From Candidatus Hadarchaeota archaeon (GTDB lineage Archaea > CAYQAE01 > CAYVLA01), in contig CAZUNO010000012.1 of NCBI GenBank assembly GCA_964621445.1, forward strand, positions 1 to 64,000: a DNA stretch of 64,000 bases, in the 5' to 3' direction. The notes under the pieces were generated by a model. The model worked only from the letters and a program-made list of their open reading frames with translations. It ran no database searches and had not been told where the DNA came from. Shown here one piece after another: positions 3,143 through 63,905 of the stretch; position 1 is the first letter of the stretch; each line of letters opens with the position of its first letter. The position numbers were made by a program, and so were the translations under genes.

Positions 3143-4189
3143 ATGCGTGGCGAACATAGCTACGCGGAGGCCGGAGTCGATATCGAATCCGATGATCAGG
3201 CCATAGCGGCGATTGGAAAATGGATTGAAAGAACATACTCCTTCAGGGAGGAAAACACCTTTCCTGAAGTCAAGGGACATTACTCTGGGCTATATAGGCT
3301 CGATGACCAAAGGGTCCTGGCAATTAGCACCGATGGAGTGGGAACCAAGCTCATCGTTGCCCGAATGATGTCCAAATATGACACCGTCGGCATTGATCTA
3401 ATGGGGATGCTTGCCAATGACATCATATCGGTGGGATCGACCCCAGTGGCAATGGTAGATTATATCGGCGCCAGAAAGCCAGAACCCGACCTTCTATCCG
3501 AAATAGGAAAAGGAATCTATGAGGGATGTAAAAGGGCCCATGTGGTGGCCTTAGGGGGGGAAACCGCAACCATGCCTGACCTCATTGGCGATCTTGACCT
3601 GGTGGGGGCAATAGTAGGCTTATGCGATGAGGAACAACTGGTCCTCGGGTCAGGGATACGGGAAGGGGATGTTCTGGTGGGCATCAGATCCAGCGGTATG
3701 CATTCAAATGGATATACCCTGGCCAGAAAGGCCTTCTTCACCTGGAACGATTTCTCGATTCATGACCAGCTCCCAACCGATGAATCCACCAGCATCGGGG
3801 AGGCCCTGATGATCCCTACCACCATCTACGTGGACGTTATTCTGGAGATCCTTAGGAACCTAAAACCGCATGGCCTGGCGCACATAACCGGTGGCGGTTT
3901 AACCAAACTACGTAGGCTTAAATCGGGAATGGGATATGTTATTGACCGCATCTTCCCAACCCATCCAATCTTTGAAGCTGTCAGAAAACTGGGCAAGGTT
4001 TCGTGGCCCGAGATGTATAGGACCTATAATATGGGCGTTGGATTCGCGGTAATAGTACCGCCCGAGTCCGCTGCCCAGGTGATAGAAATCTGCGAGGGTA
4101 ATGACATGGAAGCAAAACCGATAGGAACCGCAATACCGGACCCGGATCAGAAAATTAGGATAAAGGCACAGGAGAAATTCGTCCTTTAG
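3143..4189 (+). CDS. purM: Phosphoribosylformylglycinamidine cyclo-ligase
   Basis: YAEAGVD, STDGVGTK, GGETA, HSNGY, HITGGG, TYNMGVG. Confidence 0.95.
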   Translation: MRGEHSYAEAGVDIESDDQAIAAIGKWIERTYSFREENTFPEVKGHYSGLYRLDDQRVLAISTDGVGTKLIVARMMSKYDTVGIDLMGMLANDIISVGSTPVAMVDYIGARKPEPDLLSEIGKGIYEGCKRAHVVALGGETATMPDLIGDLDLVGAIVGLCDEEQLVLGSGIREGDVLVGIRSSGMHSNGYTLARKAFFTWNDFSIHDQLPTDESTSIGEALMIPTTIYVDVILEILRNLKPHGLAHITGGGLTKLRRLKSGMGYVIDRIFPTHPIFEAVRKLGKVSWPEMYRTYNMGVGFAVIVPPESAAQVIEICEGNDMEAKPIGTAIPDPDQKIRIKAQEKFVL

Positions 4190-5556
4190 CCATTGTACCC
4201 CCAGGATTCGCGGGCTAGCTTTAGCACACGATCCACCTGTTCCCTGGCCGTGCCCAGGTAGCTCTCGGGTTTCATCGCCTCATTAATCTCCTCCTCGGAC
4301 ATTAAATCGGTCACCTCAGGTTCGGTCTTCAGAGCCTTGGAGAAGTGGCACCCATCCTCAAGGGCCTTGAGTGAGGCCTTCCTGATCAAAGCGTGAGCAT
4401 CCTGTCTTCCCATCCCCTTTTCGGTCAGGTTAATCATCATCCTCTCGGCCATAGTTAGACCCTTGGTCAGATGTAGATTCCTCTCAATACTCTCCTCCTC
4501 GAAGACCAAACCTCTAACGACATCCGATGCCAAGGAAAGAGCATAGTAGAGGTACATCGTGGCGTCCGGCAGGGTGACCCTTTCACAGGAGGAATTGGTA
4601 AGGTCCCTCTCGTGCCACAGCACATTACATAGTAGCTGTGGTTCAAGCATGGATCTCACGATCCGAGCTAGTCCACAGATCCTTTCCGACCTTATTGGGT
4701 TTCTCTTAGAGGGCATCGTAGAACTCCCTACCTGCTTCTTGCGGAACCCTTCCCTGACCTCATTCAGTTCAGTCCTCTGCAGATTTCTGATCTCCGTGAA
4801 TATCTTGTCCATGGTGGTGGCGATCTGGGCCAGGCAGAACAAGTAATCGGAATGCCTATCTCTCTGCAGTATCTGGCTGGTTATCAGGGGCTCATGGAGA
4901 CCGATCCGTTCCATTATTATGGATTGTATCTCCATTCCCTTTTCTCCCAGGGCGGATTGAGTTCCCACAGCCCCCGTCATCTGGCCAACGCAAACCCTTG
5001 ACTTCGCCTCATCCAAGCGATCGATATTCCTCTGCATTTCGCAGGCCCAAAGACCGAACTTCATCCCGAAGGTTGTTGGTAGAGCGTGCTGTCCGTGGGT
5101 TCGCCCGATACAGACCAGATCCCTTCTCTCCCGGGCATGGTCCAGAAGCACATCTCTTAGTTCAACCGAACGTTGGCGAATCAGCTTCAGGGAATCTCTC
5201 ATCTGGAGAGAAAGCGCCGTATCGGTGATGTCATTGGATGTGGCCCCCAGATGGACATAACGACCTGCATCCCCATCACAAACCTCGGTTAGGGCCATGA
5301 CCATTGCCATCACGTCATGATGGATTTCCTTATCGATCTCATTTACCCTTTCCACGCTAACGTGATCGGCTGAAGCCTTCTCGGAGATCTCTTCCGCAGC
5401 AGCGACCGGTATATTCCCAACCTTCGCATGAGCCATGGCCAAGGATCCCTCGACCCTGAGCTGATAATCTAGCTTGCTCGATTCTTCCCAGATCGATGCC
5501 ATCTCGGGTCGAGAGTACCTTCCGATATCTATTGGGGTAATAGGCATTACGGACAC
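4186..5556 (-). CDS. purB: Adenylosuccinate lyase
   Basis: HHDVMA, HLGATSND, GRTHGQHA, GSSTMPSKRNP, WHERDLTNSS. Confidence 0.95.
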   Translation of the reverse strand: MSVMPITPIDIGRYSRPEMASIWEESSKLDYQLRVEGSLAMAHAKVGNIPVAAAEEISEKASADHVSVERVNEIDKEIHHDVMAMVMALTEVCDGDAGRYVHLGATSNDITDTALSLQMRDSLKLIRQRSVELRDVLLDHARERRDLVCIGRTHGQHALPTTFGMKFGLWACEMQRNIDRLDEAKSRVCVGQMTGAVGTQSALGEKGMEIQSIIMERIGLHEPLITSQILQRDRHSDYLFCLAQIATTMDKIFTEIRNLQRTELNEVREGFRKKQVGSSTMPSKRNPIRSERICGLARIVRSMLEPQLLCNVLWHERDLTNSSCERVTLPDATMYLYYALSLASDVVRGLVFEEESIERNLHLTKGLTMAERMMINLTEKGMGRQDAHALIRKASLKALEDGCHFSKALKTEPEVTDLMSEEEINEAMKPESYLGTAREQVDRVLKLARESWGYNG

Positions 5557-51729: not shown

Positions 51730-52953
51730 ATGAGAATTCACCTGGTCATCATAATACTCATGTTTTTAATGCCCGCAGTTTCCCCAATGGAGGAAAAGGT
51801 CGATCCCCGGACGGGGAGAATCCGCCTGCTCTACATTGGATCCTCTTACTGGGGCACCAGACCGGGCCTCATATTCCTTTCGGACCCCAAGTTCCGCCCA
51901 ACCTTGATTCCTGCCATCACCGTCTGGTCCACTGGCAGGCAAACATTCGGAGATCCTGAACAGGATATCGCCAGGAGCATGAGGATATATTTCCCGAGAA
52001 CATATGAAGATCTGATAGCCAAGTATGATTTCATCCAGCTATCAGGCTGCAACGAGAACGTAATCAGCGGCAGATGGCAGCGGGATTTCACACGGGCAAC
52101 GAGGGAGGAGGGCCTCGGATTTGCCATGACCGATGGGTATCGAGGCTTCGGTGGCGGTCCCCAGGCCCATTCAACCTGGGAGGGGAGTTATCTTGACGCA
52201 GCACTGCTCCCCGTGAACTCACTCACCAAACAATTCGTAATAGGGCCCATGTGGGCTAGGGTCCTTGAACCAGACAATGACCTCATGAAATCGCTGCCTC
52301 TAGAAAGTGCCCCTCCTCTTATGGAAATAAACGAGGTCACAATGAAACAGGGTGCCACCTTGCTCATGGATATCGAGCCCCAGGCCAAACCCCTAATGGC
52401 ATACTGGGACGTTGGAGAAGGAAGATGCCTTGCCTGGACATGTGATCTTCACGGAGCACCTAGGGGGTCGGGCATCTGGCAAAGGGAATGGAACTACTGG
52501 ATTGATTTCGTACTCAACCTTGATTACTTCGTGGCGGGTATTGAATGCCCCAAGGACCCCATGATGATGCACGCCATAAGGGAAGGATTCTGATCGTACT
52601 CGGAGAGGCTTGCCCTCATAAACGATCTAATATCATTCATACAAAGATTCGGGGCCAGCACCGGGAAGATTGACCAGCACTTGGATATCTTGAAGTCCCT
52701 GAAGAGAGATATCGATGAGTCGTATCTGGATCAAAAGTACCAGGAAACCCTGTCTAAAATGAGGAACCTGGAAAGGGAATTCGAGTCGGCTCAGGAAACG
52801 GCCATGGAGATTAAGGATAATGCACTTCTCTGGGTCTACACGGTCGAATATTTGACGGTTCTGGGAACCATCCTGGCATCTGGTGCCGTTTTGTGGTCCG
52901 TCCTTGTGAAAAGATCCCTTTACAGGGAGGTGAAGACCACCCGTGAGAAATGA
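51730..52953 (+). pseudogene. Membrane-anchored extracellular protein (paralog 3) with an in-frame TGA at 52591-52593
   Basis: ORFs 51730-52593 and 52681-52953 share a frame; the gap translates as SYSERLALINDLISFIQRFGASTG, colinear with paralogs 1 and 2. Confidence 0.8.
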
Positions 52954-52964
52954 TTACGTCGACA

Positions 52965-53662
52965 TCATCTCCATACCAGCCTCAGCCCCTCGATACCAAG
53001 GGGAACTCCAACATACTCATCGGTCCAACCATGGTAATCCCTAAAACTCCGTGGATTCACCCCTGTGAACTCGTCCGCCTCCCAGTGTCTGGGACCTAGG
53101 AGGTTTCGGAGGCTGTTAGTGAGCTTTATTTTGATTTCATTCATGCCCACCTTGAGTTCATCCTCAACGCAAATCCGATATTCCCGCCAGAAAACGTTCC
53201 CTACCTTCTTTTCGTTGACTATAAATTGGGCTACGGTACCCCCGAGCTGTTCAAACTCAAGGTAGGGCCTCCCGGGCCTCCGCTTCTCGATCCTTATTTC
53301 CGTTTCCAGTACAATTGTCCCGGCGAAGAAGGGATATCCATGAGTTCTAAGGTCTGATATATCAGGGCACTCGGACTCCTCCTCCGTGAGAAGAGGGCAC
53401 TTTCCGTCTATCCTAACCGCAAAATCACCAAGAATATAGGCATCCTCGATACTGAGATCCTCTTCCTTTCTCCCCCTGATTATGACACGATTACGCCCCT
53501 TTACCAGGCATCCATCCGCCGAAATCCGTCTGAATGCCGGATCAAGCCACCATGAATTCTCCTGGGGTTCAACCTTTCTCTCGTTGATGTAAAGGTCAAA
53601 CCTCTGGGCATCTTCAATAACCACGGAAACGGAATATGACGAATCATTACGGAACTCGTATT
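52965..53662 (-). pseudogene. 3' part of a GH106-like glycoside hydrolase gene split by an integrated element
   Basis: YEFRNDSSYSVSVVIED...YILGDFAV...GYPFFAG...LTNSLRNLLGPRH; in frame with the 5' part through the repeat AACTCGTATT. Confidence 0.88.
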
Positions 53663-53671
53663 ATGTCACGT
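53653..53671. repeat. Left attachment site (core AACTCGTATT, element arm TTATGTCACGT)
   Basis: Read directly; marks the junction between host gene and AT-rich element end. Confidence 0.88.
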
Positions 53672-53760
53672 GTTAGTGTTGCTTTTGTTCCAATATTAAT
53701 CTAATCGAGATGATAGCTTGATATATTTAAAATTTTTTATAAAAAAAATCCATTAAAATT

Positions 53761-54741
53761 GTGACAATAATTATATTTATTAGGATTCAAAGAAAAAGAT
53801 ATTGGAATCGAGATCTAAAAAAAAATGAGATTTGTTTGAAGTTGAAATCTAAAAACAAGATAGACTTGAAGCTGGCACGGTTTAGAGAAAGGATATCTGG
53901 CCGGAAGTGGAACCCACTGACCGTGAGGCAGTACGTGGTGTGGGCCAGGAGGCTTGAGGCCTGGGCCAAGCTCCATAACCAAGAACCGGAAAGCTTCCCG
54001 GGCTTGATGTTCGACTTCGACACCTATCTCGCCAACCTCCCCCGGAACCCGCCCTGGGGGTCCACCAAGAAGAAGGGCGACAGCTATGCGTATCGGTCCC
54101 GGGTCCAGGCTCTCTCCGCAGCCAAGCTCTACCTACAGCTCATGTACGGGGCCCGCCTGGAGCGGGACGTGGACCAGTTCGTATCCGGGCAGCAACCCCA
54201 GTTCAAGCCGGAGTGGTACACCAGGGAGGAGGCACACAAGATCTTCAGAGACACCGCCAACTGTAGCTACCCCTCCTGCCGGGCCATGACCAGGCTGGGG
54301 TACGACTGCATCCTGCGGTGCGCCGAACTGGTAAAGGTACAGAAAAACGACATAGACATGAACCGAAAAACCCTGGAGGTCAGGGCGGTCAAGCACTCCA
54401 TCCCCAGAGAGGTAGGGTTCACCGAGAAGACCAAGGCCCTGCTGGAGCCGGTTATGGAGAGGCGAAAGACTGGGCACCTGTTCCTGACCTACGAGACCGA
54501 GGACAGGCCGGGCGTCAAGCCCTTCCAGCCGCAGTCATGGAGCAGGCACTTCAGGAGAGAGCACAACGCCAAGTTCCACAAGCTGTGCCGGCATTCGAGC
54601 ATTATCCACAAGCTGCAGGAGGGATGGAGGTTCGGCGATGTCTACCTCCAGGCCAGGCACAGGCACCCCTCCATGACCGCCAAGTACGCGGAGTACGCAG
54701 CGGTAGAGGTCCCGGAATGGGCTCAGGAGACCCCTTTCTGA
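53761..54741 (+). CDS. Tyrosine recombinase / integrase, apparently intact
   Basis: ILRCAEL (R), AVKHS (K), HKLCRHS (H..R), ARH, MTAKY (Y). Real start is probably TTG 53836 or 53842. Confidence 0.88.
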   Translation: MTIIIFIRIQRKRYWNRDLKKNEICLKLKSKNKIDLKLARFRERISGRKWNPLTVRQYVVWARRLEAWAKLHNQEPESFPGLMFDFDTYLANLPRNPPWGSTKKKGDSYAYRSRVQALSAAKLYLQLMYGARLERDVDQFVSGQQPQFKPEWYTREEAHKIFRDTANCSYPSCRAMTRLGYDCILRCAELVKVQKNDIDMNRKTLEVRAVKHSIPREVGFTEKTKALLEPVMERRKTGHLFLTYETEDRPGVKPFQPQSWSRHFRREHNAKFHKLCRHSSIIHKLQEGWRFGDVYLQARHRHPSMTAKYAEYAAVEVPEWAQETPF

Positions 54742-55497
54742 AGGCGGTAAGCCCTCGCCATTAGCGGTGAAGGAAAGGGGGAAGACAAAAACACAAAGCC
54801 TGAAAAAGGTGACCAGCCGCCAGTGAAGAGGAGAAAAAAACTTTCTGAATATTGAAATTATGATCATTTAACTTGGAAATGAGAAGCCCCCCAATCAGGG
54901 ATCTTTATGATGAGAAAAAGGGTTGACCCAGCACCTATAGACAGCACAGGTATCTCCTATAAGAAACTGCCAAACCATCCCGATATCGATTAGGCAAATG
55001 AAAAACACTCAGTGCTACCGCTATCTACCGATTTCCTTACCACCGGGGAATGGAAGCAAGATTAAGATACTGCTCCCCCTAAACAAACTCCGGGGGGTTT
55101 TCTAGTTAACCTCTAACCATAGAAGAAGCTTTCCCGATCCTCTTCCGCTGTGAACAGATTTCGTGAAACAATATAAGATTGGCTATACTTCTGACCTTCT
55201 AGACATGCACAAACGATTCCTGCTCAACCTAGAAAAGGTACAAAATAGGCAGAGATAACGCTATTGCTAGGCGGGGCAAACAGTGAACACGTCAATCATT
55301 GCCGGGTATTGCCTGGGCAGGGCCCTAGTGTACTTCTTGATGGTCATCCATTTTCGGCCTTGGTCTGTATAGCATTAGATGGTTGGTGGACCCTATTATA
55401 AAGCATCCCAGTATGCATTTCGTTCCCGACCCCTTGACGGTAGTAAGAGACCACAAGATGGGGAGGAGACCTATTACCACACGTTTGGCTGGCGGAA

Positions 55498-55713
55498 CTA
55501 GATCCTCGATCTTTTTACTGCCAGCTTCACGTCTTCCCCCCGTACTGTCTTTCTTCCCGCGTGTTGAGCCATCTTTTTAGCCCTGACCGCGACCAGGGCT
55601 CCGTGCTTCTCGAGCAGCTGTGCCAGGGCACGTGTGGCCGAGGCGCTGACACGCTGAGCATGAGCATTGTCTCTGATAATTCTCTCCACTGGGGCTAAAG
55701 GCAGTTCCCCCAC
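55498..55713 (-). CDS. Archaeal histone (HMf family) variant
   Basis: GELPLAPVERIIR...RVS...LE...HAGRKTV..EDV.LA; AGGTGA RBS 5 nt before GTG 55713. Confidence 0.93.
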   Translation of the reverse strand: MGELPLAPVERIIRDNAHAQRVSASATRALAQLLEKHGALVAVRAKKMAQHAGRKTVRGEDVKLAVKRSRI

Positions 55714-55912
55714 AACATTCACCTACAGGGGCAGTTTCCCGGCCCCGTATTAAGGTGTTGCCCCTGACGGGAGTGCCCTGCCGATATGGTTTTCGACCGA
55801 TCTCCGCCCGTGCAGGCGCGGGCCTTCACTCAGCTTGCGCCCGTTGAGCGAGTAGAAGCATTTTCAAGGGAGGGGGATAAGGCGGCATTGTCATTTATGG
55901 AAGGCAAGCCCC

Positions 55913-56249
55913 ATGAAGGCAAATCCACGTTGGGTTAGGTTCTCCTTGGCAGCATTCGCCGTGATGGCTGCCGCAGTCCCTGGCTTTGCGATTCTCGATA
56001 TCTACAATTTTGATTGGTATTACTTTGGAGGAACGGGGGGGGAGAGCTTCGCTGGCAACTTTACTGCCTATCATATTTGGTATGCTCAACTTAGTAGTTT
56101 TCTTTTCAGGCCCTCTTATGTTCGCACTTGGGATTCTAGAGGGATATCAGATTGTTCGTGGTCTTATGGATCCTTACAAGAATCCTAGCGAGTTCCCAGT
56201 GCCTCATACTACAGTAAGGTATGAGAATGACATAAGGGGAGAAATATGA
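55913..56249 (+). pseudogene. Probable frameshifted small membrane protein
   Basis: Overlapping hydrophobic ORFs 55913-56188 and 55986-56249 in different frames. Confidence 0.35.
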
Positions 56250-56866
56250 AGTCTGTACGAAAGAAGGTTTATGGGAACCGAATAATAGTAATTACTGGTC
56301 AGAGTACTTCTTTGAATTGTGGCGGTATGGGAATGATACTCGGCTTCACTAGATCCTTGGAAAACTCCTTCCAAGAATCTAAGATTTTCCTTCTATCAAA
56401 TAATTCTAAACTGGATCAAAGAAGATATGCCTTGGAGAATATTGAGATCGTGCAAAGATCTTGGGTAAGGGCAAAAGATAGAGATTTTCAGAAGTATCTC
56501 TATACTGTTATCTCCTTTCTCCTTATTGTAACTAGGGCTTTCCTTTACCGTTTGGCAGGAGTACTTCATCTTGAGAGTGAAAGAATCTTGGAGTCTACGC
56601 TCTCTGTTTATGTTCGGTCGAATGTTGTTGTCGATATCAATGGGGATTGTTGGTCTCGGCATTTCGATCATCGTTTTTTTCCCTGGTTATTGCCCTTGGT
56701 TTTACATGGGGTGGATTTAACTAGGAGCGGAGGTATTGGTTTGGCATTATATTATCGACCGGTGGTTCTGTTTTCCCTATTTTTGTTCACTGTGCTCCCC
56801 CAGTTGGGGGTCGCCAGGATTACTCCTGATTGTAGTGATCTCGGGGAGTTAGAGCGATTGGAATAA
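56246..56866 (+). pseudogene. Truncated polysaccharide pyruvyl transferase (WcaK-like N-terminus)
   Basis: IIVITG...NCGGMGM...IFLLS.....D...VVVDINGD, after which similarity appears to stop near 56650; much shorter than full-length members. Confidence 0.55.
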
Positions 56867-57922
56867 GGGCAGTACCATCCCAAACACTTGTAGCCTTCAA
56901 GAACAAGGCTCCCGATAGACGTCGGGGCCTCGCGTCAGACAATGCATCTACCCTGGCTCTCGGCCATTGATCTTTGGAGCAAGATGGATAAATGAAATTT
57001 AGGGAGGAGATTATCAGCCTGCTGCCAAAACCTATTTCACACCAACTACAATAGGACTAAAGGACATTGTGCATCCGTAGATACAAAAATGGGTTCCAAA
57101 CTATTTCGATAACACAGGGACTGGAAAACCTAGAAAGAGCTTGGTCTAGATCTCATACCCAAATTCTGCGAGAAAATAGCATGATTCTAGGGCCTACCTC
57201 TCGATGATCACGCCGGGCCGTTCTCACCACATATCGCCGTCCATTGTTTAGTGCCTCTATTGGCTACTCCTCCTGTATCAATCCCTGTCTAGGAATGTTG
57301 GCGCGGATATGCCCGAATAATCATTCCTCATAACTTGCTGAAAGTCCTCCGTAGACATGGTGGACAACGTTCCAGACGCTATCTACTCACCGGTCTCGGA
57401 GTAGGTGACTACAACATTCAGCTTCTGGGCCACACATATGTTCAAGGAAGGATTCCTCCTGCCCTCCACCAGCCTTCCCTCGCCCCACTGGAAGGAGGGA
57501 ACTTTCAATAACAGGATTAGAGCTCAATTATTGGTTGTTCAAGAACGTGGTTCAATCTCTTCATAGCATCAATCATCTCCTTCTGTACTCTGCACCACTC
57601 TCCGTCATCGTCTCCCTACATCAGTAATCTTCTTTCAAACCCTTGAAGCTTTTCTGTCCTCCATCTTGGCCCATGCAAGTCATCATGTGTAATTGGCTAA
57701 AGAACAGCAAAACACACCGCATTGCCGGAACCGCGGTACCGCGAAATAGTTATTAAAACCCCTAATTCAAAAACAGTCAACAAAATCCGTCCAAACCCCC
57801 AAAACCCGCTCATTCAAGCTCAAAAATTGAAATAAAAAAATCCAAAAAACATAACCTTGGATGTCCACCCGCTACAGCGAGGGAATCCCTACGGGCCGGC
57901 CCACTTGGTCAAGAATACATAA

Positions 57923-60265
57923 CTAATCCTCTCTAGTCGTGGGGGGTCGGTAGCTGAAACCCCTTAGGAAACAAATCAGGCCCACGAATAGCAGGGGGAG
58001 TAAAAGTTCAGTAATCGGGAACCACAACGAGTTGGATCCAGCTGATTTAAGGGTAAGCCACTCCTGTTCTCTCTGATATTCCGCCGGGTATGCGGTGTGG
58101 TAGTACTCGGGCCACGGTGATGGTGCGGGGTATTGGCCGCCCAGGGTCAGTGAGTAGAGCTGTGTTTCCTGGTAGGTGTGTCCTCCTAGCTCGACTATCC
58201 ACTCGGAGACGTTGTCACCGTCGATGTCGCCCCACCAGCCTCCGTTCTCCGCCCTCCTGTTCACTGCTACATTCTCGTTCATGTAGTATGCTTCCAGCCT
58301 CCCCGTGGCGCCATCGGTGACTATCGGGAAGGGGGCTAGCCAAAGCACCTCTAGCTCGCCGTCGCCGTCGATATCGGCTATCGTCTGGTAAGAGGACCAG
58401 TAGTTGGCGGTCGCTCCCCACGGTAGTTCCCCGCTCTGGCTCATCTCGGTGAAGTTAACCTCCCATATGACCTCCGGGGAATCCCCGCTTATGTTGAGGG
58501 CGAAACCGGCGTCACTGGACATCACCACCATATCCATACCGCCATCTCGGTCCAGATCCCCGACAGCCTGACAGAGCCTGATTGTGCCCTGCCTGGGGTG
58601 CCTCCATGACCACTCCTCCACGCCCTCATGGCTGATGCTGAAAACAGACGACATCGGCGGGCTGGTCCAGGCCAGCGCCTCGAACTCCCCGTCCCCGTCG
58701 ATATCCGCTACAATCACATTGTTGAACTCCATGTTGGACCCTGTGTCGAACCTCCACCTCTCCAACCCGGACCCGGCATCAATGCAGTACACATTGTGGT
58801 CCTGGCAGGCCCAAACCACCTCGAACTCACCGTCCCGGTCGATATCACAGACAGTGGGATGACCACCGTTACCCGGCAAGGTCTGGAACGAGGTCCAAAC
58901 CAGCTCGCCCTCATGGCTAACGCGGTGGATATAGCCATGGTTGGTGCTGAGAAAGAACTCAACGAAACCATCGCCATCAACATCCAAAGCCTGCGGGGCA
59001 CCAAACATATCCGCCCGATCGGGTTCATCCCAGTACCACACAAGCTGTCCATCACCATTCAGAACATGAAGCCTTCCACCCCTACCAGCCAGACAGAGCT
59101 CATAGACACCGTCGGCATCAACGTCCACCAGGGACACCTTACCCGGGTTACCGGGAAGCCCAGGCATATCGGGAGGAGGATACATCCACTCCAGCCTGGA
59201 ATCCGCATCGACACACCACAGCCTCTTGGTATCACCCCTCCCGTTACCGAACACCATCTCCATCACCCCGTCACCGTCCACATCCCAAACCGTCTGACAT
59301 CCCCGGTGCCCCGGACCAACGATCGAGGAGGTAAGATCACTCATATTGACAATCCACTCAACACCGAGCAGAGGGACCTCCGGTTCCCTGAACTCGGTCG
59401 AGAAATTCACCCCAGCGCTAGCCTCAGTCCGACCATCAGAGACATATACCACCAACCGGTGAACCCCATCCGGCAAGACCAAGTCAATCTTCTTGTCCAC
59501 CACAACAGGGCAGGCATCATTACCGATGTAGCTCTGCCTGGCATGGCCCTCCAGAATTATCTCGCCGTCGACCTCTACCCGCCAGTCAATCTCAATAGGT
59601 TCAACATCCACATCGTACACCCGGAAACAAACCGACCAGAGTCTAGCTAACTCCGCTCCCTGGTTCGGCTCGGTGATAACCAGGTACCGAGTCTCCCCCG
59701 GCACCCTGGACCCGGAGATGTTACCGGCAAGCGTGATACCGGCCCGCGGGTATCTAAGAGCAACCCGACTCATCTCCTGGAACTGATACCTCGGGAGCCT
59801 CCACACAGCCCACAGCCCGATACAGGAACGGGGGCTAAGGTTATACCTCCCATGCTTCCAGATCTTCTCTACAAGCCCATCGCATTCCATTTCACCAAAT
59901 TGTTGGGACCATCGATGGTAGTAACAATCTCTCCACGGGCCGTCATCCACCTTAAACTCCATCAAACGCGGATCAATAACCATATAGCTATCCAGGTTGT
60001 TGCGGAGTCTCATCCAAACGATAACCTCCCTGAACCCCTCAACATCCCCAACGGCAACCAACTCCAGGGTCACCCCATTACTCGTGGCATCCACAGACAT
60101 GTAGGAATGGTTGCCATGGAGTGGTTGTGAAGAACCTCCAGGATCAACGTCAAGGCTAGACACCAAGCTGAAGTTAAGCGGAAGAATTAGAAAAAGGAAA
60201 AATAGAGAATTGAATTTCGTCATCCTAATTCCACTGAACGAAGGATTGTTCCACATGAAAATCAC
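57923..60265 (-). CDS. Secreted/surface protein with FG-GAP / PQQ-like beta-propeller repeats and C-terminal anchor
   Basis: Signal peptide; about 8 DxDGDGxxE repeats; WPEYYH; C-terminal PITE + TM + basic residues. Confidence 0.82.
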   Translation of the reverse strand: MIFMWNNPSFSGIRMTKFNSLFFLFLILPLNFSLVSSLDVDPGGSSQPLHGNHSYMSVDATSNGVTLELVAVGDVEGFREVIVWMRLRNNLDSYMVIDPRLMEFKVDDGPWRDCYYHRWSQQFGEMECDGLVEKIWKHGRYNLSPRSCIGLWAVWRLPRYQFQEMSRVALRYPRAGITLAGNISGSRVPGETRYLVITEPNQGAELARLWSVCFRVYDVDVEPIEIDWRVEVDGEIILEGHARQSYIGNDACPVVVDKKIDLVLPDGVHRLVVYVSDGRTEASAGVNFSTEFREPEVPLLGVEWIVNMSDLTSSIVGPGHRGCQTVWDVDGDGVMEMVFGNGRGDTKRLWCVDADSRLEWMYPPPDMPGLPGNPGKVSLVDVDADGVYELCLAGRGGRLHVLNGDGQLVWYWDEPDRADMFGAPQALDVDGDGFVEFFLSTNHGYIHRVSHEGELVWTSFQTLPGNGGHPTVCDIDRDGEFEVVWACQDHNVYCIDAGSGLERWRFDTGSNMEFNNVIVADIDGDGEFEALAWTSPPMSSVFSISHEGVEEWSWRHPRQGTIRLCQAVGDLDRDGGMDMVVMSSDAGFALNISGDSPEVIWEVNFTEMSQSGELPWGATANYWSSYQTIADIDGDGELEVLWLAPFPIVTDGATGRLEAYYMNENVAVNRRAENGGWWGDIDGDNVSEWIVELGGHTYQETQLYSLTLGGQYPAPSPWPEYYHTAYPAEYQREQEWLTLKSAGSNSLWFPITELLLPLLFVGLICFLRGFSYRPPTTRED

Positions 60266-60300
60266 ATTTACCTAGGAGGCTCAGCTTTCTTATAGGTCCT

Positions 60301-60905
60301 TCAGTCATCGACGAAGAGTCCTCTGGTCGGCTGGTTATTGTCATCTATCTCCAAGTTGTAAATCTCTGTGTTCGAGTCCGGTCCATTCAGATGGGCTCTG
60401 CTGAGGAACCTGAATTTGTACTCAGCTGTGCCGAAATCGTAGTTGACTTGAAGCCACTCCGTAGATTCCGGGATACTACTTGTGGTAGTACTCCAGAGCT
60501 TGCTTCCCACGTTGACCCAGTGCCCATCTTGTTTCTCGTAGACGAAAAGCCACATCCTGAAATAAGCTTTGCTTGCCGTGTCCTGTTCTCTTCATAGTCT
60601 ACTAGCACACCACACTTTGCGTACTCTCCACCGTCCAACTCGTTTTCGTCTGTATACCAATACGCTTCCCAACCATAATAGCCGCTTCCAGTTCCGCTGT
60701 CGAAATCGCCGTATCCTCCGTACATGTATCCATATATCCCAGCCCAATACGTGCACCCAGTTTCACAATCTCCTGAATCCACTTCGAAATGGTCGGCACT
60801 GTAACCAAATGAGGAAGTGTTGTCTATGTCTACTCTAGATATGGCCCAGACAATGGCAGCGCTGCCGATAACCAACATCACTGTCAAGATGGCTTCTCTT
60901 TTCAT
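60301..60905 (-). pseudogene. Secreted protein with one frameshift near 60590
   Basis: MKREAILTVMLVIG signal peptide after a GGGGTGA RBS; the protein-like sequence continues in another frame as EQDTASKAYFRMWLFVYEK...LFVDD. Confidence 0.55.
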
Positions 60906-61019
60906 TTCTTTCACCCCCCTTTGGCCCATCTGGAGGCCATGAGGACAGGTCGAACAACACCCAGGGAACTGTACAGATCCCTCGGTCTGGGAGCTGCGGC
61001 CTTTCTCGGTCCACGTTGG

Positions 61020-61692
61020 CCTGGGTCCTCTTTCTCTCCTCCAGGTACCGTCTTAACGCCTGGCAGGCGTCCTGCCCAAAGAAAGCTCTGTACTCAACGC
61101 CCGACTTCTTTCTAGCTAGCTTAACCAGCAGCGGGGGGTCCTCCAGGCTACCTCTTACCGGGTCCTCCACCATGACGTCGCCGACGTTCAGATCCAGCAG
61201 ATCTCCTATGCTCATACCGGACTGCCATAGGCAGAGGATGATGGCTTTGTCTCTGTTGGCTTTTGCATGGTCCACCAGCTCTCTGACTTGGTCTCGCCGA
61301 ATATTCATCTTCCGGTTTCTCTGTCTTCTGGTCGCTTTCGGTAAGCTCAACTTTTTCTTGTCCACGGGGAGATCGTTGTAGTTCAAGAACTCCGTTATGC
61401 CCGAAAGGTACTTGTGACAGGTTTTAAGAGCGAAACCTTTTTCTCCATTCTTCTTCTCCGCCTGGCTGTGGAGGTAGTTGAAGAACCCCTTGAGGATGTT
61501 GACTTCAGGCCTTTGACGTTTCTCTATATCCTTTCTCCTGTCCTCGGCGACAACCCTTATCAGTCCCTCTCCCAAGATTTTGTGCCCTCGCTCCTTCTCC
61601 ATGTAGCCCTGGAAAAGCTGGAACGCTCTCCGGTACGCTGTCCGCGTGGACTCATTCTTAGATTCAAGGAAGCTCTCAGTCCTGTTGTCCAT
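61020..61692 (-). pseudogene. C-terminally truncated tyrosine recombinase
   Basis: N-terminal STRTAYRR domain, RDKAIILCLWQSGMSIGDLLDLNVGD, RKKSGVEY, ALRRYLEER; no HxxR or catalytic Tyr follows. Confidence 0.8.
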
Positions 61693-61737
61693 GGTACCAC
61701 ACCCAACCTAAACACCCAAAGTAAAAATGTAACTAGT

Positions 61738-61756
61738 TAATGAACTAACTCGTATT
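61738..61756. repeat. Right attachment site (element arm TAATGAACTAA, core AACTCGTATT)
   Basis: Read directly; 55 bp upstream of the start of the right recombinase. Confidence 0.88.
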
Positions 61757-63905
61757 CGACTTCGAACTCAGCCCCGTTATTCAAGGAGGAAACCGCCTCC
61801 TGGACCTGCCACACTGGCAGAATCTCGCTCCATTCGCCAGATCCATTCACTGGTCTCCACCTGGCGAAATCCATTACCGCCTGATTGGGTTGAGAACGGG
61901 ATATCTTCCAGGAAGAATCGGGTTCAGTTATATGCAGAGGCTCATCGAGCACCTCCTCTGCCTCTCCATCCACCTGAAAATCCGGATTGACCAGAAATAG
62001 TCTCCCCTGACCACCGGCCAGGTCGAAGGTCGTGTTCCGTGGACGAGATAAAACCTCACCCGTGTGGGGAACCAGCTCCTGGACCTCATCCTCGAAATCC
62101 ACATTCAGCCTCATAGTTTTCGAGTAATGCATATTTACCATGAAGCTTATGGTTGAATTTCCCAACCTTCGCCTATGAATTAGTAGATTTCGTAGAGGTG
62201 CTCCTGACACCCATTCAATGGAAGGGCCGGGGCTAAGAAACGGTTTTATTTTGGACGCCAGACTGCGTTCGGAGTTTTTAGTTTTTATCGCCCGGGCCAG
62301 CAGATCCTGGAGCTCGCCTGATTCCTCCCCCTCGATCAGATATGGTACCTCCCCAACCAGGATGATCTCACCACCCGATTCCGAGAGATCTTTGAGCAGC
62401 TCGAAGGTCGATCGCCTGATGCTTTTCATGGAGGGAATGACCACTACCCGGTATTTCTGGCGTCCCAGGACCAATTTCCCTCCACGAACCTCCCCATGCT
62501 TTTCAATGATGAACTCCTCACCGTACTCAAAATCTATCTGACTTCTAAGGAGATTCCAGGTCAGCTCTCTAAATTTCTCAAAGACATCCTCAACCCGATC
62601 CGGTCTGGATGGGCTATACTCGGCCCAGGCGCTTCCTATGGGATGGATGACTAGCACATCAACCAATCTATCTCCATGCGATAGGACGTAACTAAGCCTG
62701 GTGAAATAATCGGCTACCATGCGGTTATATTCCCACCAGGGCTGATGGGGAGATAGCGTGGGTGGATAGTCCCTCTTTCGAGCCCCCCTCAAGGAATATA
62801 AAGCCAGGTGTTGGCACAGAAAATTTACCCCCAGCGCGTATTGAAAGTTGCCTATCCATCTTCTATCATGAAAGTCCAGCGCCTGTCCAGAGGTGCCGTA
62901 GCTCTCGGATAGAACCCTTCTCTTGCCGAGCTGAGAGGAAACCGAGGCAACCTGCTTCTCTACCCAGGGATTATGTATGCCCTTTCCCAGGTGGTCTATT
63001 CCTGGCTGTTGCATGTATTCATAGTGTTGCATGGCACTCCCAATGCAGTGGATCTGGCCCAGAAGAGAATCCTCCCACTCGTAGTGCCCCGTATAGCTCA
63101 GTGACCGTTCCTCGCACCAATCATGGACCTGCTTGCTGAAAGCCTCCACGAAAAGCCGGGTCAATGTAGAGTAATAATCGTACCTTACCTTTCTGAATTC
63201 TCCTTCATCGAAAAATAGGCTTTCAATATGATCCGCTAAATTGTATCCGTGTTCCACCTCAAACCTATCAACCATGTCCTTTGCCCAGGGAATAACAAGT
63301 TTCCCGCTCTGGGAATGATGGGTGGCATACTGCGGCTCGTCGGTAAATATGCCCGGTACAGTTTCACCAAACTCGTTTCCCAGGTGAATCTCATATAGTT
63401 CGTGGGTTGACTCCAGGAAGCAACCAACTGCATCGGGGTTTAGTAGATTTGGGATATGTCCCATCGGCATGACCTTGGCGAAGAAATCGAAGGATTGCAT
63501 CTCCCCGTCGATCTCCATCTCCCTCCTTGCCAGGGTATTCAGCGGAGGCCTGGAATCCCGTGATGGCCTGCAATATAGAAGCATGCTCCTGAATTCCGGG
63601 GCGAGCTTGGTGACTTGTCCTCCACCCTTTCCGCTGGGCCAACCATCCTCATCATATATCCAGAACCTGCCTCCGATCTCCTCGAACTTCCGAACGCAGG
63701 ATTTGACTAGATTGAACCAACGGTTGCTCAAATAGGGGGTCACTAGTCCCGTCCGGGCATGGAAGAAGAATCCACCCCACCCCTGACAATGGAATTCCTC
63801 TATGAACTCCAGGAGCCTTTCCTCCTCTAGCTGATCATTGACTGAAAAGAAGGGAGCGGGACGGTATTGGACAGGTGGTTCCTTGAATCGGTCTAGATTC
63901 ACCAA
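61747..63905 (-). pseudogene. 5' part of a GH106-like (alpha-L-rhamnosidase-like) glycoside hydrolase gene split by the element
   Basis: RPAPFFS, IYDEDGWPSG, GIFTDEP, PGIDHL, SESYG, RKRDYPP. GGAGGAGG RBS before TTG 63905. Ends AEFEVEYE then LVH* read from element sequence. Confidence 0.88.

What the first reader, a model, noticed from the sequence alone, without database searches (positions are those of the whole stretch)
52965..63905. 8.1-kb element interrupts a glycoside hydrolase gene; precise excision restores the frame
Seen: the 5' part ends ...AEFEVEYE at the repeat (61747-61756) and the 3' part resumes YEFRNDSSYSVSVVIED at the other copy (53653-53662). Removing the 8,094 bp gives one uninterrupted ORF of 948 aa from TTG 63905, and neither half carries stops or frameshifts. 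Knowledge: gene-interrupting elements excised on cue are known in bacteria (skin in sigK, SP-beta in spsM, the nifD elements), whereas archaeal integrative elements mostly target tRNA genes. Inference: either a recent insertion or an excision-controlled switch for a carbohydrate-degrading enzyme. Intact host halves alongside decayed cargo fit both.
Basis: partly seen in the sequence, partly recalled or inferred. Interest (0 to 1): 0.82.

Follow-up and report, generated by a model that had tools for sequence, protein, structure and literature searches.

The report
Integrase element splits archaeal glycosidase gene
An 8.1-kb, partly decayed mobile element carrying a tyrosine-recombinase integrase sits inside a rhamnosidase-like sugar-cleaving enzyme gene of an uncultured archaeon; cutting it out would restore the gene exactly, but nothing shows that the cell ever does so.

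Summary
An exact 10-bp direct repeat (53653-53662 and 61747-61756) brackets 8,084 bp. Removing 8,094 bp gives one 948-aa frame. That frame is collinear, without a gap at the seam, with uninterrupted 951-961-aa orthologues in 3 of 3 other genomes of the host's family.

The insert has one catalytically complete tyrosine recombinase at its left end. At its right end is an unrelated recombinase cut off after residue 233 of about 430. Both have close relatives almost only in MSBL1 archaea. There are no terminal inverted repeats and no transposase.

Contigs assembled independently from two microbial-mat runs bridge both junctions. None shows an empty site or a circle, but depth is only about 5x and only contigs were available.

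The gene halves show no relaxed constraint. No same-species genome is available for comparison.

Best reading: a lineage-specific, fairly recent site-specific integration that breaks the gene inside a beta-strand. Excision is possible in principle. A regulated switch is neither supported nor excluded (about 10%).

Archaeal att sites inside protein-coding genes are already documented (review PMC8371274). I therefore rate this a new member of a known kind, of moderate interest.

The parts
61757..63905 (-). 5' part of the GH106-like glycoside hydrolase gene (codons 1 to about 716, running on into the repeat). As it stands the frame continues through the repeat and three element codons (LVH) to TAA at 61737-61739.
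   Evidence: Pfam PF17132 Glyco_hydro_106, E 3.1e-9, 36.3 bits against a cut-off of 29. The gene caller's product P0007 is 721 aa.
61747..61756 (.). Right copy of the 10-bp direct repeat (presumed att core, attL/attR).
53653..53662 (.). Left copy of the 10-bp direct repeat (presumed att core).
52965..53660 (-). 3' part of the glycoside hydrolase gene (231 codons plus stop). It carries the C-terminal jelly-roll domain and is preceded directly by a TAA.
   Evidence: NCBIfam NF045579, E 8.8e-9. 47-58% identical to the C-termini of the orthologues.
53663..61746 (.). Interior of the inserted element (8,084 bp). GC is 0.509 against 0.517 for the genome.
53761..54741 (+). Int1, a complete tyrosine recombinase reading inward from the left end. 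The real start is probably a TTG near 53836-53842, because its relatives are 287-295 aa.
   Evidence: PF00589 profile positions 3-167 of 172, E 1.7e-12. R186, K211, H273, R277, H300 and Y309 are invariant or nearly so in 21 relatives. Alignment.
55498..55722 (-). Archaeal histone gene carried by the element.
   Evidence: PF00808, E 3.5e-15. 85.6% nucleotide identity over 473 nt to C15:70926-71359. Alignment.
56246..56866 (+). 206-aa ORF with no family. Only its last roughly 60 residues match anything: the N-terminus of a 421-aa frame on C20. Probably a gene fragment.
57923..60265 (-). 780-aa FG-GAP repeat surface protein with a hydrophobic N-terminus and a C-terminal hydrophobic tail. It is intact and belongs to a host paralogue family.
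   Evidence: PF13517, E 2.2e-17. tblastx matches at about 50-65% on C4, C31, C30, C7, C55, C35 and C5.
60301..60929 (-). Small secreted-type protein gene. In the window it is split into 180-aa and 84-aa frames. With the extra T seen in both runs it is one 209-aa frame.
   Evidence: (T put in behind 60585 in X1 and X2).
60943..60995 (.). 53-nt stretch, 94% identical to C47:10748-10800, which lies at the 5' edge of an IS66-family transposase gene. It marks the point where Int2 is cut off.
   Evidence: Loose ends on both sides.
60997..61692 (-). Int2 remnant: the first 233 residues of a roughly 430-aa tyrosine recombinase, reading inward from the right end. The second half of the catalytic domain is missing.
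   Evidence: PF00589 profile positions 3-88 of 172 only. Alignment to P0135, P0137 and P0141. Relatives.

Best explanation
This is an integrative element that entered the GH106-like glycoside hydrolase gene of this archaeal lineage by tyrosine-recombinase site-specific recombination at a 10-bp core shared by element and target. The core is now present once at each border (attL and attR).

The insertion cuts the gene after codon 719 of 948, inside a beta-strand of the C-terminal beta-sandwich region. The upstream part now ends after three element codons. The downstream part has lost its promoter and start. The enzyme is therefore most likely inactive while the element is in place.

The event is specific to this lineage and recent enough that the halves show no decay. 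After insertion the element itself was reworked. One of its two recombinases was cut off at an IS-related sequence, and much of the middle is non-coding or consists of copies of host-type genes.

The remaining recombinase, Int1, is complete, so exact excision is chemically possible. I take the insertion to be an ordinary one, not a programmed switch.

Shown: the repeat, the exact restoration, the uninterrupted orthologues, the state of the recombinases, and the junctions in independent contigs. Inferred: that a recombinase of this element made the insertion, which of the two did so, that the gene is inactive, and the timing.
For: - Exact 10-bp repeat at both breaks and a 948-aa restored frame. 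The seam is collinear with orthologues of 955, 951 and 961 aa in 3 of 3 other family genomes.
- Partial synteny. A CN-hydrolase homologue lies beside the orthologue in L003 and L005, and an S15 peptidase homologue beside it in L004.
- The 11 closest database homologues are 945-960 aa. None of the 119 listed non-self hits is 700-740 aa long.
- Int1 covers nearly the whole catalytic-domain profile and keeps the R-K-H-R-H-Y residues. It starts 99 bp inside the left repeat (GTG 53761); Int2 starts 55 bp inside the right repeat.
- No terminal inverted repeats: score 14 against a shuffle mean of 14.9, and 230 of 300 shuffles score as high. No transposase among the element ORFs scanned.
- Both junctions are bridged by contigs of two runs.
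- No sign of relaxed constraint. The restored protein departs at 3 of 132 columns that are at least 95% conserved. For the 114 homologues the median is 1 and the mean 2.4, and 34 of 114 have 3 or more. Its terminal branch is 0.432 against 0.416 for its sister.
- The break maps to residues 716-718 of orthologue P0008, inside strand 711-720 of a model with pLDDT 89.9.
- The host has paralogues of the enzyme on C10 (38%) and C15 (25%), so the loss may be tolerable.
- The neighbouring gene 51730-52953 carries an in-frame TGA.
Against: - No excised form or other copy of the element was found, so its mobility is not demonstrated.
- No homologous element could be fetched to confirm the att site or the target preference.
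- Ten bp is short for an att core, and the same 10-mer occurs 9 times in the genome.
- Two unrelated recombinases at opposite ends (E 3.1) are not explained by a single simple element.
- The cargo looks like host DNA: GC 0.509 against 0.517, a histone 85.6% identical in nucleotides to a chromosomal copy, and FG-GAP paralogues.
- Intact halves would also be expected if selection maintains them for a reversible switch.
- The two runs come from one study and may be the source of the MAG. They therefore exclude an assembler error, not a peculiarity of the sample.
Confidence: 0.72

Rival explanations
1. A programmed or condition-dependent excision switch, like skin/sigK, SP-beta/spsM, the nifD element or 'active lysogeny'. 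The element stays in the gene as an off-state, and Int1 removes it on cue to switch the glycosidase on.
For: - Both halves are intact and show no relaxed constraint.
- Int1 is complete while the rest of the element is degraded. That is the usual look of domesticated switch elements (recalled from the bacterial literature; abstract starts of PMC5499854 and PMC12607152 seen in the listing).
- Excision would be exact.
Against: - No empty-site or circle joint in the contigs of 2 runs (weak, because depth is about 5x and only contigs were laid).
- The element is not at this site in 3 of 3 family genomes, nor in the 11 closest homologues, so no conserved gene-element partnership is visible.
- No excisionase-like gene was recognised.
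- Archaea of this kind have no known terminal differentiation in which an irreversible excision would make sense (established knowledge, not tested here).
- A recent insertion explains the intact halves equally well.
- No archaeal case appears among the titles listed.
Confidence: 0.1
2. Two elements, not one. An Int2-type element integrated first and created the repeat. An Int1-type element later landed within or beside it, and IS-associated deletion removed the inner border and the Int2 C-terminus. This is a variant of the best explanation: the insertion is still a plain one, but Int1 may not recognise these borders, in which case excision is no longer possible.
For: - The two recombinases are unrelated.
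- Each sits at one end reading inward.
- Int2 ends exactly at a 53-nt sequence shared with an IS66-family locus on C47.
- The interior is a patchwork.
Against: - There is no third copy of the core. The only near match inside the element is 60637-60646 with 1 mismatch, and five such one-mismatch sites occur across the window.
- No relative's context could be fetched to see whether the two recombinases travel together.
Confidence: 0.25
3. A transposon-type insertion in which the 10-bp repeat is a target-site duplication and the recombinase genes are passengers.
For: - Ten bp is within the range of duplications made by some IS families (recalled).
- An IS66-related fragment lies inside the element.
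- The 10-mer is not unique in the genome.
Against: - No terminal inverted repeats.
- No transposase or Cas1 among the ORFs scanned.
- IS66-family elements make 8-bp duplications (recalled).
- Recombinase genes lie directly inside both ends.
Confidence: 0.05
4. An assembly or binning artefact: the element was joined into the gene by the assembler.
For: The genome is a MAG of 89 contigs with 4.2% contamination. Depth is low.
Against: - Contigs from a different assembler, in two runs, cross both junctions with 0 differences.
- A chimera would not place a 10-bp duplication exactly so that the frame is restored.
Confidence: 0.02

Closest known systems
Archaeal integrated elements with att sites inside protein-coding genes: Halorubrum virus BJ1 in the HMG-CoA reductase gene, Methanobrevibacter smithii Msmi-Pro1 in a metal efflux gene, NitGar-E6 in an AsnC regulator gene (review PMC8371274, section 19, passages read)
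   Same: Archaeal host, a tyrosine-recombinase element, a target inside an ORF rather than a tRNA gene, and recombination at the site untested.
   Different: - Here the cut lies 76% of the way along a 948-codon gene, and the element supplies only three codons, so a whole C-terminal region is lost.
- The recombinases belong to small uncharacterised groups known almost only from MSBL1 archaea.
- I did not read the primary papers, so I cannot say where in those genes the cuts lie.
skin element in sigK and SP-beta in spsM of Bacillus subtilis; nifD, fdxN and hupL elements of Anabaena (bacterial gene-interrupting elements excised during differentiation)
   Same: An element inside a gene, intact halves, exact restoration on excision, degraded cargo with a retained recombinase. 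The nifD element's XisA is also a tyrosine recombinase (recalled).
   Different: - Those elements are conserved at their site across strains and are excised in a terminally differentiating cell under a known regulator.
- skin and SP-beta use serine recombinases plus a directionality factor. For SP-beta see the abstract start of PMC5499854 in the listing; the rest is recalled.
- None of this is shown here, and the host is an archaeon with no known differentiation.
SSV-type 'suicidal' archaeal integrases (att site inside the int gene, int split on integration)
   Same: Archaeal tyrosine recombinases at the borders of an integrated element, one of them incomplete.
   Different: - The repeat is not inside either int gene, and Int1 is whole.
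- The missing half of Int2 is not at the other border, nor anywhere else in the genome.
- No tRNA gene is involved.
GH106 alpha-L-rhamnosidases (BT_0986, PDB 5mqm; Novosphingobium rhamnosidase, PDB 6q2f)
   Same: Pfam GH106 match above the cut-off. The model of the closest orthologue matches 6q2f (E 2.2e-39, TM 0.61/0.55) and 5mqm (E 5e-35) best.
   Different: Only 12-13% identity to the solved enzymes. No sequence match to any PDB chain. The NCBIfam equivalog score is 55 bits against a cut-off of 1300. Substrate unknown.

Membership tests
Tyrosine-recombinase integrative element | Encodes a tyrosine recombinase with the catalytic R-K-H-R-H/W-Y residues | tested here: met
   Int1: PF00589 profile positions 3-167 of 172. 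R186, K211, H273, R277, H300 and Y309 are conserved in 21 relatives. Int2 fails this test, being truncated after residue 233.
Tyrosine-recombinase integrative element | Identical core sequence in direct orientation at both borders, with the recombinase gene next to a border | tested here: met
   10-bp exact repeat. Int1 starts 99 bp inside the left copy (GTG 53761) and Int2 55 bp inside the right copy.
Tyrosine-recombinase integrative element | Uninterrupted target (empty site) in relatives | tested here: met
   3 of 3 other family genomes have an uninterrupted orthologue collinear at the seam. These belong to other genera; no same-species genome was available.
Tyrosine-recombinase integrative element | Excised circle or empty site detectable, or other copies or relatives of the element | tested here: inconclusive
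   No such joint in the contigs of 2 runs at about 5x depth. No second copy in the genome. No relative's locus retrievable.
Programmed gene-interrupting elements (skin, SP-beta, nifD type; active lysogeny) | Interrupted gene halves intact and exactly restorable | tested here: met
Programmed gene-interrupting elements (skin, SP-beta, nifD type; active lysogeny) | Element kept at the same site across related strains or species | tested here: not met
   Not found at the site in 3 of 3 family genomes, nor in the 11 closest homologues. Caveat: all are at most 63% identical, so conservation within the species is untested.
Programmed gene-interrupting elements (skin, SP-beta, nifD type; active lysogeny) | Excision on a physiological cue, with a directionality factor | not testable with these tools
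   Only contigs of 2 DNA runs were available and no RNA holder was listed. No excisionase family was hit.
SSV-type suicidal integrase elements | att core inside the int ORF, so that integration splits int into two border fragments | tested here: not met
   The repeat lies outside both int genes. The Int2 C-terminal half is found nowhere in the genome.
Transposons and casposons with target-site duplication | Terminal inverted repeats and a transposase or Cas1 | tested here: not met
   No inverted repeats above shuffles. No such family among the ORFs scanned.
Glycoside hydrolase family 106 | Sequence match to the family model above its cut-off, and the family fold | tested here: met
   PF17132, 36.3 bits against a cut-off of 29, partial coverage. 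The orthologue model matches GH106 structures best.
Glycoside hydrolase family 106 | Catalytic residues and rhamnosidase activity | not tested
   Residues were not mapped. Identity to solved enzymes is 12-13%.

The most novel reading that the evidence does not exclude
The element is a domesticated, reversible genetic switch in an archaeon. Int1 excises it under some condition, for example when substrate is available in the mat, and so turns on a GH106-like glycosidase. This would be the first archaeal counterpart of bacterial gene-interrupting or 'active lysogeny' elements. It would be run by a recombinase family so far seen almost only in MSBL1 archaea.
Probability: 0.1. Interest if true: 0.8.

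Novelty: new member of a known kind. Interest (0 to 1): 0.4.

Why it matters
It is a very clean case of an archaeal integrative element that truly breaks a protein-coding gene rather than landing in a tRNA gene or replacing a gene end. The attL and attR borders and the inferred attB and attP are defined to the base.

It also gives a genomic context to two small, uncharacterised tyrosine-recombinase groups shared with MSBL1 archaea of brine environments. That makes a concrete biochemical test possible: Int1 acting on these att sites.

If excision were shown to be conditional, it would extend recombinase-driven gene switching to Archaea. As it stands, it documents how mobile elements remodel the carbohydrate-degrading gene set of an uncultured mat archaeon.

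Tried and rejected
- Reads for excision. Only Logan contigs of 2 holders (one study) could be laid. They show no joint from 53662 to 61757 and no circle joint, and no loose end at either junction among the 12 listed (13 not shown). Contigs drop rare variants, so this says nothing about low-level excision.
- No RNA holder was listed, so nothing can be said on expression.
- Run X3 held next to none of the words and laid 0 contigs.
- Same-species empty allele. None found; the best non-self homologue among 5.8 billion proteins is 63% identical.
- dN/dS. Not attempted, because synonymous sites are saturated at that distance. It was replaced by a conserved-column test and a branch-length comparison.
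- Context of the Int1 and Int2 relatives. Scans of genome contigs, metagenome contigs and viral contigs with the Int1 alignment found no relative. It was used instead in the genome search, where 1 of 401 genomes matched, namely the host itself. The Int2 alignment found 3 short metagenome contigs of 1.7-3.6 kb, too short to show context. Phages gave no match. Plasmids gave only matches at 24-31% identity.
- tRNA or other RNA target. None in or beside the element.
- SSV-type split integrase: rejected.
- Terminal inverted repeats: none.
- A longer, imperfect repeat: the identity stops at 10 bp on both sides.
- Supplements of papers were not consulted. The tables of integration sites in the papers cited by PMC8371274 might list similar mid-gene insertions.
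- Literature. Searches were read as listings only. No listed title describes an archaeal excision switch or MSBL1 integrases. That covers only those four searches of the held library.

Full report
**What is in the sequence**

- On the minus strand, an ORF that starts at TTG 63905 reads ...NNGAEFEVEYE and runs into AATACGAGTT (61756-61747). It then reads three more codons (LVH) and stops at TAA.
- 8,094 bp downstream, the same ten bases (53662-53653) follow a TAA. The frame then reads YEFRNDSSYSVSVVIED... to a stop at 52965.
- The repeat is exact for 10 bp and extends by no further base on either side. Removing 8,094 bp gives a 948-aa frame from TTG 63905, or 970 aa from TTG 63971.
- The gene caller's product for the 5' part is 721 aa (P0007). 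The closest homologues are 945-960 aa. Both facts fit the 63905 start.

**Is it more than chance?**

A 10-bp repeat alone is not significant. The 9.3 kb around the element holds 72 exact 10-mer direct pairs (about 41 expected), and the 10-mer occurs 9 times in the 3.2-Mb genome (6.1 expected). What counts is its position.

- A search of the host genome and 40 relatives found the enzyme in 4 of 41 genomes. These are the host and all 3 other genomes of its family, and 0 of 37 outside the family.
- The three orthologues (54-60% identity) are uninterrupted frames of 955, 951 and 961 aa.
- In the alignment the restored seam EFEVEYEF lies gap-free on EFEVRYEF, EFEVAYEF and EFEIRFDF.
- Orthology is backed by neighbours. 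A carbon-nitrogen hydrolase homologue lies next to the orthologue in L003 and L005, and an S15 peptidase homologue next to it in L004. Both have counterparts a few kb downstream of the gene in the window.
- In the orthologues the DNA at the site matches the core at 8 of 10 (G001), 8 of 10 (G003) and 6 of 10 (G002) positions (my count from the sequences printed).

**Assembly**

The window is the first 64 kb of an 80.5-kb contig of a MAG (89 contigs, 96% complete, 4.2% contamination). Two microbial-mat runs from one study hold 86% and 70% of the sampled words. Their Logan contigs cross both junctions with 0 differences: X1 records 1 and 6, X2 records 8 and 15. An assembler artefact is therefore very unlikely, although the runs may be the MAG's own source.

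**The host and the gene**

- The genome has an archaeal SSU rRNA (1462 bits over the whole model) and an archaeal LSU rRNA on contig C17.
- The family has only 4 species-level genomes in the held set, and the class one more.
- The 5' part of the enzyme matches Pfam GH106 above its cut-off (E 3.1e-9).
- The 3' part matches a glycosylhydrolase jelly-roll domain (NF045579, E 8.8e-9).
- No PDB chain matches by sequence.
- An AlphaFold model of the closest orthologue P0008 (pLDDT 89.9, pTM 0.90) matches the GH106 rhamnosidases best: 6q2f (E 2.2e-39) and BT_0986, 5mqm (E 5e-35), at 12-13% identity.
- The break maps to P0008 residues 716-718, inside beta-strand 711-720 of the C-terminal beta-sandwich region. 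The truncated product would therefore lack part of a folded domain. That it is inactive is inferred, not shown.
- Paralogues exist on C10 (38%) and C15 (25%).

**The insert**

- Left end. Int1 (53761-54741, plus strand) matches the Phage_integrase profile nearly end to end. It keeps R186, K211, H273, R277, H300 and Y309, which are invariant or nearly so in 21 relatives. Its relatives are 287-295 aa, so the true start is probably a TTG near 53836-53842.
- Right end. Int2 (61692 down to 60997) is the first 233 residues of a roughly 430-aa recombinase. Homology to full-length relatives stops at 60997, and the second catalytic half is found nowhere in the genome.
- The truncation point abuts a 53-nt stretch (60943-60995) that is 94% identical to C47:10748-10800, at the 5' edge of an IS66-family transposase gene. 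I take this as an IS-related rearrangement (inference).
- The two recombinases are unrelated (E 3.1).
- Between them lie several features:
  - an archaeal histone gene (55498-55722; PF00808, E 3.5e-15). Its DNA is 85.6% identical over 473 nt to a copy on C15, and the genome has 4 histone-fold matches in all;
  - a 206-aa ORF whose tail matches the N-terminus of a C20 protein;
  - an intact 780-aa FG-GAP surface protein with paralogues on at least seven other contigs;
  - a small gene that is frameshifted in the window but reads as one 209-aa frame with the extra T that both runs carry after 60585.
- About 3.2 kb (54742-57922) holds only the histone as a convincing gene.
- GC is 0.509 against 0.517 for the genome.
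- There are no terminal inverted repeats, no tRNA or Rfam match and no transposase or excisionase family among the ORFs scanned.

**Where the recombinases come from**

- Int1 has only 5 relatives at E <= 0.001 among 5.8 billion proteins (46-74% identity). They are three MSBL1 single-cell genomes and unnamed metagenome proteins.
- A profile search of 1.84 billion representatives gives 23 clusters at E <= 1e-30.
- Int1 was not found in the 3 other family genomes, nor in 400 other archaeal genomes at E <= 1e-25.
- Its nearest solved structure is Pyrococcus XerA, 4a8e, at E 3.6e-4.
- The NCBIfam XerA score of 43 bits is far below the cut-off of 220, so Int1 is not the chromosomal Xer.
- Int2's relatives (46-71% identity; 9 besides itself) again include MSBL1 genomes.

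**Recent insertion or maintained switch?**

- The halves show no decay. At 132 columns that are at least 95% conserved in 114 full-length homologues (of the 119 listed non-self hits, those of 900-1080 aa), the restored protein departs at 3. The others have a median of 1 and a mean of 2.4, and 34 of 114 have 3 or more.
- Its terminal branch (0.432) equals that of its sister P0008 (0.416).
- This fits a recent insertion and a selected switch equally well.
- Against a switch:
  - no empty-site or circle joint appears in the contigs (weak evidence);
  - the element is absent from this site in every relative available, though none is of the same species;
  - no directionality factor was recognised.
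- The adjacent gene 51730-52953 has an in-frame TGA, a hint that this neighbourhood tolerates gene loss.
- My estimates: about 0.72 for an ordinary, lineage-specific integration that inactivates the gene and may still be excisable, and about 0.1 for a regulated switch.
- A sub-question stays open: did one element carry both recombinases, or are two elements superimposed (about 0.25 for the latter)? This decides whether Int1 can act on these borders.

**Comparison with what is known**

- The review 'Archaeal tyrosine recombinases' (PMC8371274; passages of sections 17-19, 31, 34 and 36 read) states that most archaeal att sites are in tRNA genes.
- It also says several lie in intergenic regions or within protein-coding genes: BJ1 in HMG-CoA reductase, Msmi-Pro1 in a metal efflux gene, and NitGar-E6 in an AsnC regulator gene. 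None of these was tested for recombination.
- This case is therefore a new member of a known kind. It is distinguished by the mid-gene position, by base-exact borders, and by recombinase groups that have no described member.
- The bacterial gene-interrupting elements (skin, SP-beta, the nifD element) work alike on paper. Their defining features are conservation at the site, cue-dependent excision and a directionality factor. Here these are either not met or not testable.
- Four literature searches (listings only) showed no archaeal excision switch and no study of MSBL1 integrases.

**Verdict**

I rate it a new member of a known kind, with interest 0.4.

Noticed in passing
window 55498-55722 (-): The element carries an intact archaeal histone-fold gene (PF00808, E 3.5e-15). 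Its DNA, flanks included, is 85.6% identical over 473 nt to a chromosomal copy at C15:70926-71359. The genome has 4 histone-fold matches in all. This is either a histone captured by a mobile element or one donated by it.
   Followed up: partly
window 60585: Contigs of both runs carry an extra T after 60585. With it, the 180-aa and 84-aa frames become one 209-aa secreted-type protein (60929-60301). The frameshift in the window is probably a consensus error or a minor variant.
   Followed up: yes
window 55397-55437: One contig in each of the two runs skips 39 bases here, just beside the histone gene. X2 also shows T>C at 55546 and an extra A after 55512. Both runs show T>C at 58133. This points to strain variation inside the element.
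   Followed up: no
window 51730-52953 (+): The 287-aa GATase1-like ORF and the 90-aa ORF downstream of the glycosidase gene are in one frame, separated by an in-frame TGA at 52591-52593. A 420-aa paralogue on C47 aligns across the stop (24% over 393 columns). This is a nonsense mutation or a recoded stop. The laid contigs show no other letter there.
   Followed up: partly
L017 (G000:C47:9163-12143), 1574-2972: IS66-family transposase split into two overlapping frames of 223 aa (zf-IS66) and 290 aa (DDE_Tnp_IS66, E 4.1e-41). Its 5' edge shares the 53-nt stretch found at window 60943-60995.
   Followed up: partly
G000 contigs C4, C61, C25, C2, C23, C27: The genome has 10 Phage_integrase matches, 7 of them above the cut-off. 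They include a likely XerA-type gene on C4 (164.8 bits) and fragments with internal stops on C27. No tRNA gene lies in the 2.1-3.5-kb loci around five of them, covering C4, C61, C25, C2 and C23.
   Followed up: no
L037 (G000:C12:64001-80515), 3840-5294 (-): About 4 kb upstream of the interrupted gene lies a 484-aa protein with a weak match to the bacterial alpha-L-rhamnosidase six-hairpin domain (PF17389, E 1.9e-5). A zinc alcohol dehydrogenase lies between them. This may be a rhamnoside-related gene neighbourhood.
   Followed up: no
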